DNA from: an uncultured Gammaproteobacteria bacterium
GTDB taxonomy: Bacteria > Patescibacteriota > Microgenomatia > Woykebacterales > RBG-16-39-9b
DNA: 64,000 bases
Direction of reading: 5' to 3'
NCBI GenBank assembly: GCA_964367355.1
Contig: CAYIWY010000006.1
Location: 15,968 to 79,967, forward strand
This document shows, piece after piece, positions 17,992 through 52,330 of the stretch (positions within the stretch are counted from its first letter, which is position 1; each line of letters starts with the position of its first letter). Made by a program: the position numbers and the translations under genes. The notes beneath the pieces were generated by a model that ran no database searches, had not been told where the DNA came from, and saw only the letters and a program-made list of their open reading frames with translations.

Positions 17992-18810
17992 TTAAAGCCG
18001 TTGGCAGCTCGGGCAAAAGTGTGTTCCCCGTCCACCTACCCTTATCTTTTTTACTATAGTACCACAACGTAAACAAGGGTTACCTTCTTGGCGAAAAACG
18101 TTGAGGTTTTTGGCATGATTACCCTCTTTCCCATAAATATCGAGATAATCGTCGATACTGGTGCCTCGATCGGTGATTCCTTGGTCAAGAGCTTTGATAA
18201 TTCCTTGGTAAAGATCTTCTACTCGCTTAGCGTCAACTCTATTGCCGGCAGTTTCCGGATGAATCTTTGCGTACCAAAGTGCTTCATCTGCGTAGATATT
18301 GCCGACTCCAGCAATCTTTTTCTGGTCCATAATTAAGGTCTTTGTTGCTCGAGACGATTTCTCCAAAACTTTTTTAACAACGTCCAGTGTATAGTCTTTG
18401 GTAAACGGCTCTGGTCCAAATTCATCAGTAATTTTTTTCAAATCAGTTGAATTTTCAATTAACTTAACGTAACCAAACTTTCTTACCTCGCTAAAACGCA
18501 GTTCCCGTCCGTCCTCAAATTTGAAAGTTACGTGGGTAAAACGATCTTCTGGATCTGTTTGTTTGCGGATAAACAGTCGGCCGGAAAGTTTGAGGTGAAT
18601 TCCGATTGTACCGTCATTCTCAATTCCGAGTAACAACAATTTTCCAATCCGACCTGCCGAAACAAAATGGCGGCCAATTATTTTTTCAACTGCCTCTGCG
18701 TTAGGTTGCAACATTTTTGGAACGTCGTACCAAAGGTCAACAATTTTGTGACCAACAATTTCTTTTTCTAAATCCCTTCGAATTGTCTCAACCTCAGGAA
18801 GTTCTGGCAT
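17992..18810 (-). CDS. mutM: Formamidopyrimidine-DNA glycosylase (Fpg/Nei family)
   Basis: N-terminal MPELPEVE; C-terminal zinc finger CLRCG...CPSCQ. Confidence 0.85.
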   Translation of the reverse strand: MPELPEVETIRRDLEKEIVGHKIVDLWYDVPKMLQPNAEAVEKIIGRHFVSAGRIGKLLLLGIENDGTIGIHLKLSGRLFIRKQTDPEDRFTHVTFKFEDGRELRFSEVRKFGYVKLIENSTDLKKITDEFGPEPFTKDYTLDVVKKVLEKSSRATKTLIMDQKKIAGVGNIYADEALWYAKIHPETAGNRVDAKRVEDLYQGIIKALDQGITDRGTSIDDYLDIYGKEGNHAKNLNVFRQEGNPCLRCGTIVKKIRVGGRGTHFCPSCQRL

Positions 18811-18836
18811 GATTCCAGTATTTTAGCAGAAATAAG

Positions 18837-19670
18837 TTAAAAAAGTGATAACTGCGCTTCTCTCTGGCAGCTTTTGCAGTAATGGGTTCGTCTGCCGCCA
18901 ATTTCCGTATATTCGATCGCAGTTTTACAAGTCGGACACGGCTTGCCGGTTTTTCCATAAACTTGCAAGTAATTTTGGTTGGTTCCAGGGTTCCCGAGTA
19001 AATCTCTATACGAATCAATCGTGGTACCTCGATGTTTAATACTTGAGGTTAAAACTTCTTTTATTGAATCTAATAAATTTTGAGCTTCCTCTTCAGTAAC
19101 CAATTTTGGTGCTCGGAAAGGGTTTATTTTCGCCAGAAACAAAGCTTCATCAGCATAAATATTCCCCACTCCAGCAATAGTTTTTTGGTTAACAATGGTT
19201 TCTTTAATCGTTTTCTTGTCGCTTCGATTTATTGATAAATTGAAACGTTCAGCTTTGATTTCAAACGGCTCTGGTCCTAGGTTCTTTTCAACTTCTTTGG
19301 AATCGTGAACAATAAAAGCCTCGGCTGCGCCGTTGCGGTCACAAAAACGAACTTGCCTTCCATCATCAAGATTTAAAACAAATCTTGTAAACTCGTCAGC
19401 TCGAGCGTCTTTACCTCGCAGCAGAAGTTGGCCGGTTAGTTTCAGATGGATAATTAAACTGTTGCCGTTAGAAAGTTCAATAATTAAGTATTTTGCCCGA
19501 CGAACCGCCCGCTCGATCTTTTTTCCAGTCAACATTTGGTCAAGGTCTTGACGAGATTTAATCCGCAGATTTTCACCTAAAGAAGTAATTTTGGCCTCAT
19601 CTATTCGTCTGCCAACTAAACGCTGGTTGATATCGTTGACAATTGTGGTGACTTCAGGAAGTTCTGGCAT
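18837..19670 (-). CDS. Second Fpg/Nei-family DNA glycosylase (paralog)
   Basis: MPELPEVTT N-terminus; C-terminal CPTCK...CKSCQ zinc finger. Confidence 0.85.
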   Translation of the reverse strand: MPELPEVTTIVNDINQRLVGRRIDEAKITSLGENLRIKSRQDLDQMLTGKKIERAVRRAKYLIIELSNGNSLIIHLKLTGQLLLRGKDARADEFTRFVLNLDDGRQVRFCDRNGAAEAFIVHDSKEVEKNLGPEPFEIKAERFNLSINRSDKKTIKETIVNQKTIAGVGNIYADEALFLAKINPFRAPKLVTEEEAQNLLDSIKEVLTSSIKHRGTTIDSYRDLLGNPGTNQNYLQVYGKTGKPCPTCKTAIEYTEIGGRRTHYCKSCQREAQLSLF

Positions 19671-20370: not shown

Positions 20371-20427
20371 TGTCATCTCGAACCCTAGGTGAGAGATCTC
20401 TCCTTGTCAGAACTCGTCGAGATGACA
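20371..20427. repeat. Nested palindromic element, copy A
   Basis: Outer arms TGTCATCTCGA/TCGAGATGACA enclosing the perfect 12-nt palindrome GAGAGATCTCTC; near-identical architecture at 51552-51607. Confidence 0.6.
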
Positions 20428-20495
20428 AAAAGATTCCGTGATAAATGACTTGGTAGTTTGACATCAGATTTAGATATAAGAGATACTGGAAACAC

Positions 20496-21326
20496 GTGCA
20501 GCGATTTTTTAGTTTGCTAAAAATCAACTCCGCTGCTGCCCTTATCCTCTCTGCCACATTTTTAGGACTTTTTGCCAAACCGGCTCGCGCTGACACGACT
20601 GGTTTTTTGAGCTTAATTAATTCCTACCGACAGCAAAACGGGGTTGGAACGCTGAGTGAAGATCAGAGTTTAACTAACTCTGCCTGCTGGTTGGCAGCAG
20701 ATTTGGATATCAACGGCTTTAGCCACACAGATTCATTGGGTCGGGATATGTCAAAAAGGCTAGCTGATTTTGGAGTTAATGTATTCGGTATCGGTGAGAA
20801 TATTTTCTATACCACTTCTGGTTCTTCTGCTAACTATGCGTTTGATGCTTGGAAAAATTCTCTTGGACACAATACCAATATGCTGGGTGGTTCCTATACT
20901 CGAATTGGTATTGGTAGGATCAATGTCTCTGGCCGCTGGTACTGGACCACTGACTTTGCTGGTGGGACAGCAAGTACATTAAATAGTCAATGTGGTTCGA
21001 CAACAAAACCTACTCCAACTCCACCGGTTGTGAAAAAAACAATTCCTACTCCAATCCCAGCGCCAATAGTAGTTCAAACTCCGCCAACCGAAGTTGTAGT
21101 CGCAACACCATCAGCCTTGGAACCAAATTTAGTTATAGCCACAAAATCAGCTTCAATTTCAGCTAAAGTTGTGAAGTTTGAAAATAATCAACCAAAAGAA
21201 CCTGCAATAAAAAGTTTGGTTAAAGGTTCATTCTTAACAATCAGTTTCGTGGGTTATTTAATTCTTTTTGGATTTATTATTTGGCAATTATTTCATCATT
21301 TCCGCTTGCCAATAACAGAACCTTAG
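20496..21326 (+). CDS. Secreted CAP (SCP/PR-1-like) domain protein with Pro/Thr-rich linker and C-terminal TM anchor
   Basis: GTG start; signal peptide; CAP motifs GHNTNML and WYWTTDFAGG; C-terminal hydrophobic segment. Confidence 0.7.
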   Translation: MQRFFSLLKINSAAALILSATFLGLFAKPARADTTGFLSLINSYRQQNGVGTLSEDQSLTNSACWLAADLDINGFSHTDSLGRDMSKRLADFGVNVFGIGENIFYTTSGSSANYAFDAWKNSLGHNTNMLGGSYTRIGIGRINVSGRWYWTTDFAGGTASTLNSQCGSTTKPTPTPPVVKKTIPTPIPAPIVVQTPPTEVVVATPSALEPNLVIATKSASISAKVVKFENNQPKEPAIKSLVKGSFLTISFVGYLILFGFIIWQLFHHFRLPITEP

Positions 21327-21566
21327 TAAGGAGTTAACTACCTGTATACGAGTATATTGGTGCTTTAATCTATTGATAAATTGAAACATAAAAATGAAAT
21401 GGAAAAAGAAAAACGACCTCTTTCGAAGTCGTATCTCTTCTTAAATTAACCTTTCTTAAGATTAACTTGAGTGAGGGGTGATCGAGCATTCGAGTTCAGA
21501 TTGAACAAGAATGTCGACGGAACCAATCGGTGTCTTTTTGAGACAGCGATCCCTCACCACTTTGTC

Positions 21567-21998
21567 TTACGACGAAGCGATGGGTTCCGGATTTTCCTGA
21601 TGCCAAAGGTCGGCGACCTCGGTGACGTACAGGCTGATGATTCGTGAAAGTTTCCTTTCAGCGTCTCGCCAGTCCAACACCTTGTCGTCGAACTTCACAC
21701 GGAGAGTCTGCGGATCGATGGTGACGTAGATGTCACGACCAACCCTCGTGTGCTCGCCGTACTCACTGCAGTCGAGGACGCGTCCGTCGTGAAACGAATT
21801 CGCCTTCGATGCGAGATCAACAAGCCCGATCCAAAGATCCAGCTCGGTGATTTGTTCCTGGCTTAGCACGACCACCTCCTTCGAACAGAGTACGAATTCA
21901 TTTGATTCACACTCTTTCTTAAGAAAACCAGCTTCCTGATTTGCTTGAGAGAGACTTCGGGTCGTGGCAAATGTTTTACATTCGCTCGCCGAAGTCAT
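21567..21998 (-). CDS. Hypothetical protein, GC-rich islet
   Basis: 143 aa ORF in a roughly 52-55% GC segment; no motif. Confidence 0.35.
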   Translation of the reverse strand: MTSASECKTFATTRSLSQANQEAGFLKKECESNEFVLCSKEVVVLSQEQITELDLWIGLVDLASKANSFHDGRVLDCSEYGEHTRVGRDIYVTIDPQTLRVKFDDKVLDWRDAERKLSRIISLYVTEVADLWHQENPEPIASS

Positions 21999-22028
21999 GC
22001 TCTTCTATTCAGTTGTCCAGGATGGAAA

Positions 22029-22235
22029 CTAGGAGTACCGAGAGGAGGGTGTCCAGGGCTCGGGTTCGGGATCTTGCGGATAAAAACCCCCATCGTCCAC
22101 GTCCCGCGAATCTCCCGATGTGTCCTCCAAGTCGTCCTCGTCTTCCCTATGGCGTTCATCGTACTCAGCATAGGCGGCTTCCGCCTCTGCGTCGTACCAC
22201 TTCGCCAACATTGACCCTAACCATGCGACTAACAT
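22029..22235 (-). CDS. Small highly acidic hypothetical protein, GC-rich islet
   Basis: 68 aa, Asp/Glu-rich; could be spurious. Confidence 0.25.
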   Translation of the reverse strand: MLVAWLGSMLAKWYDAEAEAAYAEYDERHREDEDDLEDTSGDSRDVDDGGFYPQDPEPEPWTPSSRYS

Positions 22236-22569
22236 TTCGTCCTCCTTGGACTGAAATCTGAATTCAAAGAGCTGAAAGGGTGCAAACTTGAGGCTTGTAC
22301 CCTTCCTTAAGACAACCAGCTCAAGGCTGATCTGCTTAAGGTACTTAAAAAGGCATCTGGTAACTAGAGAGAATATTAGCTTCTTGGTTAGATTCCAAGT
22401 AGCAGGCTGAGTAGATTCAATCCAGTTACTAAATGCCTTGCAATTTCTTAGTAACTATATTTAATTGTTAATACGTATAGTATAGCATACTTTTACGTGT
22501 TTGTCAAGTGCTATAGGTTAATGTCGTAATTACTCAATAGCTTTGCAACACTTTTAGACAAACAAAGTG

Positions 22570-35506: not shown

Positions 35507-35517
35507 CATGGTTTTTT

Positions 35518-35556
35518 GTGGACACACTTGGATTTGAACCAAGGACCCCTAATTAG
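35518..35556 (-). pseudogene. 3' half of a tRNA (anticodon-stem 3' strand, T-arm, acceptor 3' strand) with no contiguous 5' half
   Basis: AGGGGTCCTTGGTTCAAATCCAAGTGTGTCCAC; T-arm identical to the adjacent tRNA-Ile; acceptor TGTGTCC complements GGACACA at 35711-35717. Confidence 0.5.
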
Positions 35557-35591
35557 TGAGAACCTACAGTAATCAAGTCAATTAAGACCTT

Positions 35592-35667
35592 TGGTGGGCC
35601 AGCTTGGATTTGAACCAAGGACCCCTACTTTATAAGAGTAGTGCTCTAACCGCTGAGCTACTGGCCC
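35592..35667 (-). tRNA. tRNA-Ile(UAU)
   Basis: Manual fold: acceptor GGGCCAG/CUGGCCC, D-arm GCUC-AGCGGUUA-GAGC, anticodon stem CUACU/AGUAG, loop CUUAUAA (anticodon UAU), T-arm CUUGG-UUCAAAU-CCAAG, discriminator A plus CCA; Ile-type body. Confidence 0.8.
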
Positions 35668-49015: not shown

Positions 49016-49591
49016 CTAGATTTTAAACTTTTTGGAGAGAAAAGTGTTAAGGGTCTCTTGTTCTTTGGCCGGAAGCAGACCCAAAACACTGTGGAAGTAA
49101 CCCTGCACTATCAGTCTTTTTGACTCTATCTGACCTATTCCTTTACTCGTTAAATAAAAGAGTTGTTCGCTGTCAACTGGTCCAACAGTTGAAGCATGTC
49201 CCGCTTTAACTTCATTTTCATCGATCTCAAGGGAAGGAATTGCCTCGGCCTTGGCTTGTTTCGAAAGCAGTAGAGCGTCTTCGCGGAAGTAAGTGTTGGT
49301 GTTTTTCGCACCTTTTTTGATTTTTACTAACCCGTAAAAGTTACCAACAGCTTGGTCAGTCAAAACTGACTTTATTAAAGTATCCGAAAAAGTATCTTCA
49401 CCAACATGATAGATATTAATATTCAGTTTTACTTGATCAGAATTTGCCAAAAACAAAGCTCCGAGAATAGTAAGTCTCGATCCTCTACCCACAAGAGCTG
49501 CATTGACATTAATTTCCTCTGAACCTCCTGTCCAAACTAAAGGTAATATTTTTTCTTGATTTTCTTTTAAATTTAAATTAATGTTTTTCAT
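49016..49591 (-). CDS. sufD: SufD-like Fe-S assembly protein, short (C-terminal beta-helix region only)
   Basis: 191 aa; C-terminal AGHASTVGPVDSEQLFYL matches the SufB/SufD family. Confidence 0.65.
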   Translation of the reverse strand: MKNINLNLKENQEKILPLVWTGGSEEINVNAALVGRGSRLTILGALFLANSDQVKLNINIYHVGEDTFSDTLIKSVLTDQAVGNFYGLVKIKKGAKNTNTYFREDALLLSKQAKAEAIPSLEIDENEVKAGHASTVGPVDSEQLFYLTSKGIGQIESKRLIVQGYFHSVLGLLPAKEQETLNTFLSKKFKI

Positions 49592-50129
49592 TTAGGAACT
49601 TTTTTAATTTTTTCAAGGCTTCTTTTCGAGTGGAAACTTGATTTTTCTCTTCAGGAAGCATTTCTGCATAGGTTTTTTCAAAACCATCGGGTTGGAAAAT
49701 ACGATCCCATTCCCAACCATATTCACCTCTTTGCTCTTTTGTAATTGATCCTTTTGTGGTTGCTGAGAATACTTTTGCCCCTGATTCATCACAGTAACCA
49801 ATCGAAATTTTGACTTCTGCGGTTCTATTTTTTTCTCTATCCAACATATTTAAAAAACCATCTACACCAACAGTCTCTTTTGTAAACCAAACAATTAGCG
49901 CTCCTGGCAAACCTTGCCAGGCCACAATAGATAGAGAGGAATCCTCTACAATCAAAGGCTTTTTTAATCGCGCGTAAGCATCTTCAGCTTTTTTCAAAGC
50001 CACTTTATCTGAATCAAGTTCTTGGATTTCATGAATGTCCAGGTCCCTTGAATCAAGTACCATTCCAAGAATCTGGCCAAATTCTCGAACTTTATTTTGA
50101 TTACCAGTAACAAGAATTAAGTCTTTCAT
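49578..50129 (-). CDS. rdgB: Non-canonical purine NTP pyrophosphatase (RdgB/Ham1)
   Basis: LVTGNQNKVREF motif; 183 aa. Confidence 0.85.
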   Translation of the reverse strand: MKDLILVTGNQNKVREFGQILGMVLDSRDLDIHEIQELDSDKVALKKAEDAYARLKKPLIVEDSSLSIVAWQGLPGALIVWFTKETVGVDGFLNMLDREKNRTAEVKISIGYCDESGAKVFSATTKGSITKEQRGEYGWEWDRIFQPDGFEKTYAEMLPEEKNQVSTRKEALKKLKKFLNEKH

Positions 50130-51557
50130 TTAACCTACTGCTCCGATCATCTCAAGTTGAATCAAACGATTCAGTTCAAGAGCATATTCAAGTGGAAGTT
50201 CCTTAACGATTGGCTCAATGAATCCGTTGACGATCATTGAAGTTGCATCGTTCTCACTCATCCCCCGGCTCATTAAGTAAAAGAGTTGATCCTCACCGAT
50301 TTTGGAAACACTGGCTTCATGGCCAATATTGACATCTTCTTCATCAATTTGCATGGTTGGATAAGTATCACTGCGGGAATTGCCGTCAAGAATTAGAGCG
50401 TCGCAGCGAACGTTAGCTTTGACACCAGAGGCTCCTTTAATCACTTTCAACATTCCCCGGTAAGAAGTCCGACCACCGTCTTTGGAAATGGATTTGGAAA
50501 TAATTTGCGAACTAGTATCGGGCGCTAAGTGAATTGCTTTACCGCCAGCGTCTTGATGTTGGCCTTTACCTGCAAAAGCAACTGACAAGATTTCTCCCCG
50601 AGCGCCACGACCACGCAAGTAAACACTTGGATATTTCATCGTAATTTTTGAGCCGATGTTGCCGTCGACCCATTCCATAACCGCGTTTTCATCAACAAAG
50701 GCTCTTTTAGTGACTAGATTGTAAACATTATTGGACCAGTTTTGGATCGTGGTGTAGCGGAAGCGGGCGTTCTTTTTAACAAAAATTTCCACGACCGCCG
50801 CGTGGAGTGAATCAGTCGTATAAATCGGCGCGGTGCAACCTTCAACATAATGCGCCTGCGCTCCTTCATCAATAATGATTAAAGTCCGCTCAAATTGGCC
50901 CATGTTGGCCGCATTGATACGGAAGTAGGCCTGCAAGGGAACATCAACTTTAACTCCAGGCGGGACGTAAATAAAACTCCCACCGGACCAAACTGCAGAA
51001 TTTAAAGCAGCTAACTTATTGTCAGCTGGTGGAATTGCTTTGGCAAAATATTCTTTAAAAAACTCTGGGTATTTTTGTAATGCTGAATCAGTATCGAGAA
51101 AAATTACCCCCTTTTTCTCCCACTCTTTTTTGATCGAGTGGTAGATTACTTCACTGTCGTACTGAGCACCAACTCCAGCCAAAAGCTTTTTTTCAGCTTC
51201 GGGAATTCCAATCTTGTCATAAGTATCACGAATTTCTTCCGGTAAATCTTCCCAGGTTTTGCTCTGCTTCTCAGTTGGCTTAATATAATAATAAATATCG
51301 TCGTAATTAATGGTTGAAAGGTCAGCACCCCAAGTTGGTTGCTTTTTTGCTTCAAAAATCTTCAAGGCCTTCAATCGAAAATCCAGCATCCACTCCGGTT
51401 CGCTCTTGTGAGCGGAGATTTCCTGGACAACACTCTCATCTAAACCTTTTTTCGATTTAAAAAAAGAAATATCTTTTTTTGCGAACCCGTACTTTTCGCG
51501 GTATGTTTGATTAATTTCAACCTGTGCAACTTTTGGCATATTGTTTTCATTTGTCAT
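50130..51557 (-). CDS. sufB: Fe-S cluster assembly protein SufB
   Basis: 475 aa from [10 protein letters not shown]; SufB family throughout; the longer ORF to 51608 would read through the palindromic element. Confidence 0.9.
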
Positions 51558-51607
51558 CTCGAACGTCAGTGAGAGATCTCTCGTCACCAGCGCTCCTCGA
51601 GATGACA
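51552..51607. repeat. Nested palindromic element, copy B, between the sufC stop and sufB start
   Basis: TGTCATCTCGA ... GAGAGATCTCTC ... TCGAGATGACA; first arm overlaps the sufB ATG, last arm overlaps the sufC TAA. Confidence 0.6.
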
Positions 51608-52330
51608 TTACATCTGAGCGTAACCAGTACTTTCAATCTCTTCAGCTAGTTTATAGTCCCCGCTTTTGACAATCTTGCCGTCAACCAGGATGTGGACAAA
51701 GTCTGGCTTGACGTACTTCAAAATTCGCTGGTAATGGGTGATTAACAAAATCCCAATCTCAGATCCGGCAACATTACTAATGCCTTTTGAAACGGTTTTG
51801 AGTGCGTCAACATCCAGTCCGGAATCAGTTTCGTCGAGAATCGCGTATTTTGGCTTTAAAATGGAGAGTTGCAAAATTTCTGCCTTCTTCTTCTCTCCTC
51901 CGGAAAAGCCATCATTAATACTTCGAGTTAAGAACTTTTCGTCCATTTTTAGATTTTTCATTTCCTTTTTTACTATTTTTTGAAACTCAAGGGCTGACAC
52001 TTGTTGACTCTCGAGATTTTTGTTAGCGGATCGAAGTAGGTTGAAGACAGAAACCCCAGGTACAGCCACCGGGTACTGCATTGCTAAAAACAAACCGAGT
52101 TTAGCTCGTTTGTCTGGAGTTATTAAATTAATGTTTCTACCGTCAAGAAGTATTTTCCCGGCAGTTATTTTGTAGCGCGGATGCCCCATTAACGCTAATG
52201 ACAAAGAGGATTTCCCCGAACCGTTCGGTCCCATGACGGCGTGAACCTCACCTTTATTTATTTTAAGGTTAACGCCTTTAAGGATTTCTTTGTTGTCAGT
52301 CGAAACGTGGAGGTTTTTAATTTCCAACAT
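51608..52330 (-). CDS. sufC: Fe-S cluster assembly ATPase SufC
   Basis: Walker [10 protein letters not shown]; ABC signature; start at MLEIKNLHV. Confidence 0.9.

What the first reader, a model, noticed from the sequence alone, without database searches (positions are those of the whole stretch)
20371..20427. Nested palindromic element present twice, once precisely between sufC and sufB
Two roughly 56-nt elements 31 kb apart share 11-nt outer inverted arms TGTCATCTCGA/TCGAGATGACA and an identical inner perfect palindrome GAGAGATCTCTC. Only the loop segments differ. Copy A (20371-20427) is intergenic, upstream of the CAP-domain gene. Copy B (51552-51607) fills the whole sufC-sufB junction: one arm contains the sufC stop (TAATG) and the other contains the sufB start codon (ATGACA). 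The nested structure is conserved while the loops diverge, so it looks like a functional structured element. It could be an RNA hairpin controlling sufB translation or processing, a REP/MITE-like mobile palindrome, or a protein-binding site.
Basis: seen in the sequence. Interest (0 to 1): 0.6.

Follow-up and report, generated by a model that had tools for sequence, protein, structure and literature searches.

The report
Hairpin repeat tied to GIY-YIG nuclease
The two nested palindromes are gene-less copies of a hairpin DNA repeat found in many bacterial phyla, whose full-length form carries a small single-strand-DNA nuclease gene, so the copy between sufC and sufB is an inserted repeat element and not a dedicated suf regulator.

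Summary
Both copies exist at the stated coordinates and are far beyond chance.

Each copy is a head-to-head pair of two tagged stem-loop units with the layout TGTC-ATCTC-GA-loop-GA-GAGAT-CT. The two units are fused at GAGAG-AT-CTCTC.

These came from Bacteroidota, Gammaproteobacteria, Patescibacteria and Acidobacteriota. The usual form there is about 70 nt. Stem positions covary: C-G 188, T-A 162, other 11.

Of 80 metagenomic loci chosen only because they encode one small GIY-YIG protein, 78 carry the arm within 300 nt of the gene, and 66 carry it on both sides. That protein is 49% identical to the Neisseria gonorrhoeae SsnA-type ORF, which is flanked by NTS repeats. The element therefore belongs to the CGTC/TGTC-tagged REP kind, also called Ssn-related hairpin repeats. 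The published search motif matches none of its units.

Relatives with 92% and 89% identical SufB have tight sufC-sufB junctions without the element. A dedicated sufB riboswitch-like role is therefore not supported. No nuclease gene lies in 82 kb of the host contig.

Verdict: a new member of a known kind, of moderate interest.

The parts
20371..20427 (.). Copy A: head-to-head dimer of two tagged hairpin units, 57 nt, intergenic, 68 nt upstream of the CAP-domain gene
   Evidence: Sequence. Arms. Unit HMM hits on both strands.
20371..20399 (+). Unit A1, short-loop type: TGTC-ATCTC-GA-ACC CTA GGT-GA-GAGAT-CT
   Evidence: nhmmer E 4.3e-05. Loop-closing pairs as in the family.
20394..20427 (-). Unit A2, long-loop type (14-nt apical segment CGAGTTCTGACAAG). 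It overlaps A1 at GAGAG-AT-CTCTC.
   Evidence: nhmmer E 0.0037. Long-loop class is recurrent in the family.
51552..51607 (.). Copy B: head-to-head dimer, 56 nt. It lies between the sufC stop and the true sufB start.
51552..51579 (+). Unit B1, short-loop type: TGTC-ATCTC-GA-AC GTCA GT-GA-GAGAT-CT. It is antisense to the sufCB mRNA.
   Evidence: nhmmer E 1.4e-06.
51574..51607 (-). Unit B2, long-loop type (GGAGCGCTGGTGAC). It is on the sufCB mRNA strand.
   Evidence: nhmmer E 0.012. Resembles the recurrent words GGAGCGTGAGCGAC and GGAGCGCAAGCGAC.
51608..52330 (-). sufC (240 aa, ABC ATPase). Its stop TAA at 51610-51608 abuts the element.
   Evidence: Exact protein found on 12 contigs, Pfam ABC_tran.
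50130..51539 (-). sufB with the start used by relatives (469 aa, MPKVAQ...). The open frame runs on through the element to ATG 51608-51606.
   Evidence: Gene callers started it inside the element (485 or 492 aa).
51540..51551 (-). 12-nt spacer aatgaaaacaat between the element and the sufB start. It has no counterpart in the tight junction of relative L128.
20496..21326 (+). CAP-domain secreted protein gene downstream of copy A. The promoter-like site at 20458-20487 lies between the element and the gene.

Best explanation
Each nested palindrome is a gene-less, head-to-head dimer of a 27-34-nt tagged stem-loop repeat. The unit is TGTC tag, 5-bp stem ATCTC/GAGAT, a conserved tandem G.A/A.G mismatch, a short covarying stem extension with a 3-4-nt loop (or a 13-16-nt apical segment), and a CT tail.

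The family is a branch of the CGTC/TGTC-tagged REP repeats, the hairpin repeats associated with Ssn nucleases. In its full-length form, the same units bracket a gene of about 95 aa for a single-domain GIY-YIG nuclease homologous to Neisseria SsnA. The 70-nt form, and the 56-57-nt form seen here, are that cassette without the gene. This is comparable to the relation of a MITE to an IS, or of a REPIN to its RAYT gene.

Shown here:
- the anatomy and covariation of the unit;
- the spread across phyla;
- the mainly intergenic location;
- the tight linkage to the nuclease gene;
- the absence of the element at orthologous sites in relatives.

Inferred by homology with SsnA/NTS: the unit folded in single-stranded DNA is the binding and cleavage site of the cognate nuclease, one recognisable unit per strand of the dimer.

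Inferred, mechanism unknown: copies arise by a nuclease-dependent or repair-dependent insertion process that leaves no target-site duplication.

The sufC-sufB copy is a lineage-specific insertion. Its effects on sufB are by-products. These are a stable mRNA hairpin, loss of the tight stop-start junction, and an open frame that makes gene callers extend SufB by 16-23 residues.
For: Anatomy of the unit:
- In 154 units with a 7-nt apical word, positions 1-7 pair in 147 and positions 2-6 in 145, while positions 3-5 pair in only 4. The closing-pair types are CG, GC and AT.
- Stem position 3 and its partner are C-G in 188 units, T-A in 162 and other in 11, out of 361.
- Six different perfectly complementary 5-bp stems occur on the same scaffold.
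- In Pontibacter the left and right apical words are not complementary to each other, yet each closes on itself. The unit, not the long hairpin, is therefore what is conserved.

Distribution:
The loci came from several phyla.
- 105 of 122 elements are intergenic: 52 between co-directional genes, 27 between convergent genes and 12 between divergent genes.

Linkage to the nuclease:
- Two GIY-YIG ORFs lie next to elements, at L033:147-434 and L117:6388-6693.
- 80 loci were selected by protein similarity alone. Of these, 78 have an arm within 300 nt and 66 have arms on both sides. There are 414 arms, against 2 in a reversed-sequence control.
- A forward unit ends a median of 8 nt before the start codon in 57 of 80 loci.
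- In L133 the outermost units are exact 27-nt inverted repeats around the gene.

Homology to SsnA:
- The protein is 49% identical over 85 aa (E 1e-29, pairwise) to a 94-aa N. gonorrhoeae ORF flanked by 9 NTS copies.
- SsnA binding and cleavage of the NTS as ssDNA is published (PMC11893778).

Insertion status:
- L128 (SufB 92% identical) has TAAtATG at the junction.
- L129 (SufB 89% identical) has an overlapping ATGA.
- L126 (SufB 97% identical) has a 36-aa ORF instead.
- L132 has no arm upstream of its CAP gene.
Against: - No GIY-YIG nuclease gene was found in the window, or in about 82 kb of the 92-kb host contig. These copies may therefore be relics or depend on a gene elsewhere.
- The published SRM search pattern matches 0 of 361 units.
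- No enzyme of this branch has been assayed.
- The linkage was measured from nuclease to repeat. The converse, how many repeat-bearing genomes encode the nuclease, was not measured.
- No exact empty site was recovered, so the insertion boundaries and mechanism remain unknown.
- In the fused short form the two units overlap by 2 nt, and the predicted fold is one long hairpin rather than two unit hairpins.
Confidence: 0.8

Rival explanations
1. An evolved cis-regulatory RNA hairpin in the sufCB transcript that controls sufB translation, processing or stability.
For: The mRNA-strand fold is -27.8 kcal/mol with z = -4.0. The element sits exactly between the sufC stop and the sufB start. An ATG overlapping the stop (TAATG) opens a stop-free frame through the element into sufB.
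Against: The element is absent from the same junction in relatives with 97%, 92% and 89% identical SufB. The same element lies upstream of an unrelated gene in the opposite orientation and probably upstream of that gene's promoter. Hundreds of copies lie next to unrelated genes in other phyla. There is no Rfam family and no terminator-like tail. Being in frame and stop-free has a chance of about 0.1 (my estimate).
Confidence: 0.07
2. A REPIN, meaning a pair of inverted REPs mobilised by a RAYT (HUH Y1) transposase.
For: The element is an inverted pair of small imperfect hairpins, is intergenic, and shows tandem reiteration of unit plus flank as in REP clusters.
Against: The tag is TGTC or CGTC, not GTAG or GTGG. 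A motif search for HUH/Y1 proteins in about 1 Mb of element-bearing loci and in the window found none. The gene bracketed by the units is a GIY-YIG nuclease. The literature reports no RAYT flanked by CGTC-type REPs (PMC3733652).
Confidence: 0.04
3. A MITE derived from a DDE-transposase insertion sequence, with TG...CA terminal inverted repeats recognised as double-stranded DNA.
For: The element has perfect terminal inverted repeats beginning TG and ending CA. One family member is nested inside another MITE.
Against: There is no target-site duplication at any offset, with 0-2 matches of 3 nt or longer among 122 copies. No transposase lies between paired copies. Conserved intra-arm pairing with compensatory changes is not expected for a double-stranded binding site.
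Confidence: 0.04
4. A double-stranded operator for a host transcription factor that regulates the suf and CAP genes.
For: The element has palindromic symmetry and lies in intergenic regions.
Against: Copies lie next to unrelated genes in many phyla. They are more frequent between convergent genes (27) than between divergent genes (12). The element is not conserved at orthologous promoters.
Confidence: 0.02

Closest known systems
NTS/dRS3 repeats and the SsnA GIY-YIG single-strand nuclease of Neisseria; Ssn-related motifs, SRM (PMC11893778)
   Same: Both have a 5' YGTCAT tag followed by a hairpin whose stem starts AT and ends AT-C. Both are interspersed in many copies. In both, the repeats bracket a gene of about 94-101 aa for a single-domain GIY-YIG protein. 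The protein here is 49% identical to the NTS-flanked N. gonorrhoeae ORF.
   Different: The stem sequence is ATCTC/ATTTC rather than ATTCCCGC. A conserved tandem G.A/A.G mismatch replaces two Watson-Crick pairs. The published SRM pattern matches none of the units. The dominant form is a gene-less head-to-head dimer. The hosts include Patescibacteria and Bacteroidota. No biochemistry exists for this branch.
CGTC-tagged REP superfamily (Di Nocera et al. 2013, PMC3733652)
   Same: Both have a CGTC tag, often TGTC, at one end. The stem is 8-9 positions long and starts AT. Both have a short loop and a short unpaired tail. Head-to-head dimers predominate. Both occur in several phyla, lie between co-directional and convergent genes, form clusters that reiterate unit plus flank, and are sometimes read through by ORFs.
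   Different: The loop is 3-4 nt, or there is a 13-16-nt apical segment, rather than 4-5 nt. The tail is CTN, not CCA. There is an internal G.A/A.G mismatch. I could not see that paper's consensus figures, so identity with one of its four families is untested.
REPIN-RAYT systems (Bertels and Rainey 2011)
   Same: Both are gene-less inverted pairs of small hairpins that form a long hairpin. Both are dispersed in intergenic DNA and linked to a single protein gene flanked by the same repeats.
   Different: The partner protein is a GIY-YIG nuclease, not an HUH Y1 transposase. The tag differs. The sequence is conserved across phyla, whereas REPIN families are lineage-specific.
Rickettsia palindromic elements (RPE) and Neisseria Correia elements
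   Same: All are small palindromic repeats that can land at gene boundaries or in frame, changing annotated protein ends or transcript structure.
   Different: Correia elements have TA duplications and longer terminal repeats. RPE-4 and RPE-6 are themselves CGTC-type, but they lie in obligate intracellular bacteria and are mostly intragenic.

Membership tests
Ssn-related hairpin repeats (SRM/NTS) with their GIY-YIG nuclease | 5' tag HGTCWY followed by a hairpin, giving the unit an orientation | tested here: met
   All four window units start TGTCAT. In the family the tag is TGTC in 360 units and CGTC in 1. A CGTC-tagged dimer lies at L033:475-551.
Ssn-related hairpin repeats (SRM/NTS) with their GIY-YIG nuclease | Match to the published degenerate SRM pattern HGTCWYN(0-2)YYVSBRHN(0-5)WNVSBRGN(0-2)RNCYNB | tested here: not met
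   0 of 361 units match, and there are 0 hits in the window. The failure is caused by the GA mismatch positions.
Ssn-related hairpin repeats (SRM/NTS) with their GIY-YIG nuclease | Repeats flank the gene of a small single-domain GIY-YIG protein | tested here: met
   For the family: 78 of 80 loci have an arm within 300 nt and 66 of 80 have arms on both sides, against 2 loci in the control. Pfam GIY-YIG E 4e-17 covers residues 4-77 of 95. For the window itself the feature is not met: no such gene lies in about 82 kb of the contig.
Ssn-related hairpin repeats (SRM/NTS) with their GIY-YIG nuclease | The nuclease belongs to the SsnA clade (CDD cd10448) | tested here: inconclusive
   It is 49% identical to the 94-aa N. 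gonorrhoeae ORF flanked by 9 NTS copies. CDD assignment could not be run. That this ORF is the SsnA orthologue is my inference from its length and flanks.
Ssn-related hairpin repeats (SRM/NTS) with their GIY-YIG nuclease | Sequence-specific binding and cleavage of the unit as single-stranded DNA only | not testable with these tools
   This needs purified protein and oligonucleotides.
CGTC-tagged REP superfamily | Terminal CGTC/TGTC tag; stem of 8-9 positions beginning AT | tested here: met
   The unit is TGTC + ATCTCGAXY, 9 stem positions of which 7 are paired.
CGTC-tagged REP superfamily | Loop of 4-5 nt and a 3-nt tail close to CCA | tested here: not met
   The loop is mostly 3 nt (7-nt words in 154 of 236 units), is 3 nt in window unit A1 and 4 nt in B1, and some units have 13-16-nt segments. 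The tail is CTC, CTT, CTA or CTG.
CGTC-tagged REP superfamily | Mostly head-to-head dimers, located between co-directional or convergent genes | tested here: met
   All dimers have their tags on the outside. Locations are 52 co-directional, 27 convergent and 12 divergent.
REPIN-RAYT | GTAG/GTGG tag and a flanked HUH Y1 transposase gene | tested here: not met
   The tag is TGTC. There is no HUH/Y1-like ORF in the loci or the window (a motif search of limited sensitivity).
DDE-transposon MITE | Target-site duplication flanking the terminal inverted repeats | tested here: not met
   No duplication of 3 nt or longer beyond chance at any offset. The flanks are Y at -1 and R at +1.
Cis-regulatory RNA of the suf operon | Conserved at the orthologous junction, with structure-preserving changes | tested here: not met
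   Absent in L126, L128 and L129. No Rfam match.
Intrinsic terminator | GC-rich hairpin followed by a U tract | tested here: not met
   No terminator-like site at either copy on either strand.

The most novel reading that the evidence does not exclude
The unit-gene-unit cassette is an autonomous mobile element that moves through single-stranded DNA hairpins using a GIY-YIG nuclease. The 56-70-nt dimers are its non-autonomous derivatives. This would be a class of prokaryotic transposon driven by neither a DDE, HUH, serine nor tyrosine enzyme, and able to cross phylum boundaries. The cross-phylum reach is suggested by nearly identical 27-nt ends and 52% identical nucleases in Thiotrichaceae and Pontibacter, and by copies in Patescibacteria. 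The Ssn paper raises the resemblance to insertion sequences as a hypothesis but does not demonstrate mobility.
Probability: 0.3. Interest if true: 0.8.

Novelty: new member of a known kind. Interest (0 to 1): 0.45.

Why it matters
For this window, the result removes a tempting but wrong reading. The element is not a suf-specific regulator. The annotated SufB start in public assemblies lies inside a repeat element, so the protein is over-extended by 16-23 residues.

More broadly, it identifies a very widespread branch of the hairpin repeats associated with Ssn nucleases, conserved in sequence. This branch is missed by the published search motif. It reaches into Patescibacteria and Bacteroidota. 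It shows a clear relation between a full-length form (units bracketing the nuclease gene) and a miniature gene-less dimer.

That relation makes the open question directly testable: are these GIY-YIG single-strand nucleases domesticated genome guardians, or the engines of a mobile element? Cultivable hosts such as Pontibacter carry both many dimers and the gene.

Tried and rejected
- Rfam at gathering threshold on the window, and at E-value threshold on six loci, gave only tRNAs, a SAM riboswitch and spurious microRNA-hairpin hits.
- BLAST of a 71-nt consensus against plasmids and phages found nothing useful.
- A full-text search for the arm and core sequences returned only shRNA and primer hits.
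- An IMG/VR scan gave only 2 contigs, so phages are not an obvious vector.
- The target-site duplication test at offsets 0-5 was negative.
- A search for single arms far apart, as would mark a long IS, found only tandem reiterations and fragments.
- ORFs between neighbouring copies are housekeeping genes.
- The HUH/Y1 motif search was negative.
- The published SRM pattern gave no match.
- The attempt to find an exact empty site failed. The junctions of relatives are too diverged to define insertion boundaries, and the CAP relative is only 72% identical.
- A search for a nuclease gene or further copies in the rest of the host contig found none.
- The supplements of the two key papers, which would hold consensus sequences and curated SRM lists, were not available as text.
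- I considered and dropped attC sites, dif/Xer sites, ribozymes and sequencing-adapter artefacts. The end motifs do not fit, and the copies have genuine, different genomic flanks in type-strain genomes.

Full report
**1. The observation**

Copy A (20371-20427, 57 nt) and copy B (51552-51607, 56 nt) read:
- A: TGTCATCTCGA-ACCCTAGGT-GAGAGATCTCTC-CTTGTCAGAACTCG-TCGAGATGACA
- B: TGTCATCTCGA-ACGTCAGT-GAGAGATCTCTC-GTCACCAGCGCTCC-TCGAGATGACA

The 11-mer with up to one mismatch occurs four times, against 0.63 expected, and none of 100 shuffles reached four. The core occurs exactly twice. A profile of the repeat unit finds four units in the window, two per copy, and nothing else.

The window is part of a 92-kb contig from Hainich groundwater well H52. 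The same sufC-sufB junction is present, base for base, in seven independently assembled contigs. The named SufB homologues are from Patescibacteria: Woykebacteria, Curtissbacteria and Saccharimonadales.

**2. Gene context**

On the minus strand, sufC ends with TAA at 51610-51608, directly abutting the element. The sufB reading frame is open from an ATG that overlaps that stop (TAATG), runs through the whole element, and contains a second in-frame ATG in the distal arm.

SufB of all close relatives is 469 aa and begins MPKVAQ. That start corresponds to ATG 51539-51537, 12 nt beyond the element. Public gene calls start SufB inside the element, at 485 or 492 aa.

Copy A lies 68 nt upstream of a CAP-domain gene. 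A promoter-like site at 20458-20487 lies between the element and that gene. Neither copy has a terminator-like tail.

**3. The element is not specific to this genome**

The hits come from:
- Pontibacter, Prevotella and other Bacteroidales, and Spirosoma;
- Thiotrichaceae and other Gammaproteobacteria, including Luteimonas;
- a Rickettsiales MAG;
- Acidobacteriota;
- Saccharibacteria and Blackburnbacteria.

The commonest form is about 70 nt: TGTCATCTCGA-N7-GAGAGATCT-(about 14 nt)-AGATCTCTC-N7-TCGAGATGACA. Shorter forms of 48-61 nt have the fused core GAGAGATCTCTC, as in the window. The Blackburnbacteria copy shares 33 of 34 nt with copy B (GACGAGAGATCTCTCACTGNCGTTCGAGATGACA).

Of 122 elements, 105 are intergenic: 52 between co-directional genes, 27 between convergent genes and 12 between divergent genes. 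There is no target-site duplication. The flanking bases are a pyrimidine at -1 and a purine at +1.

**4. Anatomy: two units, not one hairpin with loops**

In Pontibacter the left and right 7-nt segments are not complementary to each other. Each segment does close on itself. In 154 seven-nt segments, positions 1 and 7 pair in 147 and positions 2 and 6 in 145, while positions 3 and 5 pair in only 4. The closing pairs are CG, GC or AT.

Each half is therefore its own stem-loop: TGTC-ATCTC-GA-XY-NNN-Y'X'-GA-GAGAT-CT, with a conserved tandem G.A/A.G mismatch.

Across all loci, the third stem base and its partner are C-G in 188 units, T-A in 162 and anything else in 11 of 361. On the same scaffold, the perfectly complementary stems ATTTC, ATTCC, ATCTC, ATATC, ACTTC and ATCCC all occur.

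A second unit type has a 13-16-nt apical segment, for example GGAGCGCAGCGAC(T). Each window copy is one short-loop unit on the + strand and one long-loop unit on the - strand. The tags face outward, and the units are fused with a 2-nt overlap at GAGAG-AT-CTCTC.

**5. What is known about such repeats**

This architecture is that of the CGTC-tagged REP superfamily of Di Nocera et al. (PMC3733652). That paper describes:
- a CGTC tag, often TGTC;
- stems of 8-9 positions beginning AT;
- short loops and a short tail;
- predominantly head-to-head dimers;
- presence in five phyla;
- clusters that reiterate a unit together with flanking DNA;
- no dedicated transposase.

I saw the same tandem reiteration of arm plus flank in Bacteroidales loci and on a Planktothrix plasmid.

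The Neisseria member of that superfamily (dRS3, within the NTS) was recently shown to be the binding and cleavage site, as single-stranded DNA only, of SsnA. SsnA is a 94-aa single-domain GIY-YIG nuclease whose gene is bracketed by its repeats. Homologues with their own hairpin repeats are widespread (PMC11893778).

**6. Link to the nuclease, tested here**

Among the element-bearing loci, two small GIY-YIG ORFs lie directly next to elements.
- L033:147-434 (95 aa, Thiotrichaceae) has a unit 35 nt upstream and a CGTC-tagged dimer 41 nt downstream.
- L117:6388-6693 (101 aa, Pontibacter diazotrophicus) has a dimer 51 nt upstream.

The two proteins are 52% identical across phyla.

I then fetched 80 metagenomic loci chosen only because they encode a relative of these proteins (63-91% identity).
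- 78 carry an arm (up to one mismatch) within 300 nt of the gene, and 66 carry arms on both sides.
- They hold 414 arms, against 2 in reversed-sequence controls.
- Under a strict unit definition, a forward unit ends a median of 8 nt before the start codon in 57 loci, and a reverse unit follows the stop within 80 nt in 35 loci.
- In L133 the outermost units are exact 27-nt inverted repeats around the gene.

The gene-less dimers are thus the two ends of this cassette without the gene.

A translated search of plasmid records also hit a chromosome-sized N. gonorrhoeae record. There, a 94-aa ORF is 49% identical to the Thiotrichaceae protein (pairwise E 1e-29) and is surrounded by nine NTS copies within 400 nt. 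I take this ORF to be the SsnA orthologue.

The Planktothrix and Spirosoma homologues are flanked by units on the same scaffold with other stems, ATTCT and ATCCC. The published SRM search pattern matches none of the 361 units. This branch therefore lies outside that motif, although it shares the architecture.

**7. The sufC-sufB copy is an insertion**

- L128 (SufB 92% identical) has ...TAAtATG... at the junction.
- L129 (89% identical) has overlapping ATGA.
- L126 (97% identical, from the same aquifer) has a 36-aa hydrophobic ORF instead.
- A CAP-gene relative (72% identical) has no arm upstream.

No further copy and no nuclease gene lie in about 82 kb of the host contig.

**8. Mechanism and confidence**

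- Shown: the unit structure and covariation, the spread, the linkage to the nuclease gene, and the absence at orthologous sites.
- Inferred from SsnA/NTS: the folded single-stranded unit is the nuclease's recognition and cleavage site.
- Unknown: how copies are made.

At the sufCB junction the element adds a hairpin of -27.8 kcal/mol to the mRNA and separates a formerly tight stop-start pair. Whether translation restarts at TAATG, at the in-arm ATG or at MPKV cannot be decided from sequence. Being in frame and stop-free has a chance of about one in ten.

I rate the overall explanation at 0.8, and an evolved sufB regulatory role at below 0.1.

**9. Novelty**

This is a new member of a known kind. 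The cross-phylum conservation, the presence in Patescibacteria, the conserved G.A/A.G mismatch and the clear relation between full-length and miniature forms are of moderate interest. Together they make the mobility hypothesis for Ssn cassettes testable.

Noticed in passing
window 50130-51608 (- strand): Public gene calls for SufB start inside the repeat element (485 aa from a GTG, or 492 aa from the ATG overlapping the sufC stop). Relatives have 469 aa. This is an annotation artefact caused by the stop-free frame through the element.
   Followed up: yes
window 49578-50129 (- strand): A Ham1-like (ITPase) gene sits between sufB and the short 191-aa SufBD-core gene. In relatives L126 and L128 these two suf genes are adjacent, so this is another lineage-specific insertion in the operon.
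   Followed up: partly
L126 2885-2995: In the closest relative (SufB 97% identical, same aquifer) the sufC-sufB junction holds a 36-aa hydrophobic ORF (MKKLILVILVVIILVLMYLLYKQATDIHCFSLTNNC) instead of the element. The junction appears to be a hot spot for insertions.
   Followed up: no
window 35514-35561 and 35592-35667: A 48-nt copy, 81% identical, of the 3' half of the tRNA-Ile gene lies 76 nt from that gene. Neither ARAGORN nor Rfam recognises it as a tRNA. It may be a remnant of integration at the tRNA. The tRNA-Ile has the unusual anticodon TAT.
   Followed up: partly
window 17992-19670 (- strand): Two tandem paralogous Fpg/Nei-type DNA glycosylase genes (272 and 277 aa), with conserved blocks that show up as direct repeats.
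   Followed up: no
window 21500-22300: A stretch with overlapping ORFs on both strands whose translations are very acidic or arginine/proline-rich, unlike the rest of the window. It may be foreign or non-coding DNA.
   Followed up: no
L113 5768-5960; L095 4149-4330; L082 5728-5860; L058 4209-4326; L107 2416-2513; L214 95-160 and 735-930: In Bacteroidales genomes and on a Planktothrix plasmid, one arm plus a few inner bases plus a purine-rich flank (for example aggagggggaacgc) is reiterated in tandem 3-5 times beside a complete dimer. The period is 20-37 nt. The mechanism is unknown.
   Followed up: partly
L020, L027, L036, L055, L059, L084 (one Thiotrichaceae MAG): The dimer is nested in the middle of a different repeat of about 220 nt, with terminal inverted repeats CCTGATTAGCCAT. 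It has apparently been amplified as a passenger. In Pontibacter it is one module of mosaic multi-module intergenic repeats.
   Followed up: partly
L214 (Planktothrix agardhii plasmid p1, 18450-19516): The repeat-flanked GIY-YIG gene lies between an MmeI-type restriction-modification gene and the DISARM helicase gene drmA, that is, inside a defence-gene neighbourhood.
   Followed up: no
L133-L212, upstream of the GIY-YIG genes: The 3' half of the upstream unit (GGGAGAAATCT) ends a median of 8 nt before the start codon. It could supply the Shine-Dalgarno sequence of the nuclease gene, which would couple its expression to the folding state of the unit.
   Followed up: no
P0049 (SufB homologue, 723 aa): One SufB homologue carries Hint/intein domains (PF13403, PF14890), so it is an intein-containing SufB among relatives.
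   Followed up: no
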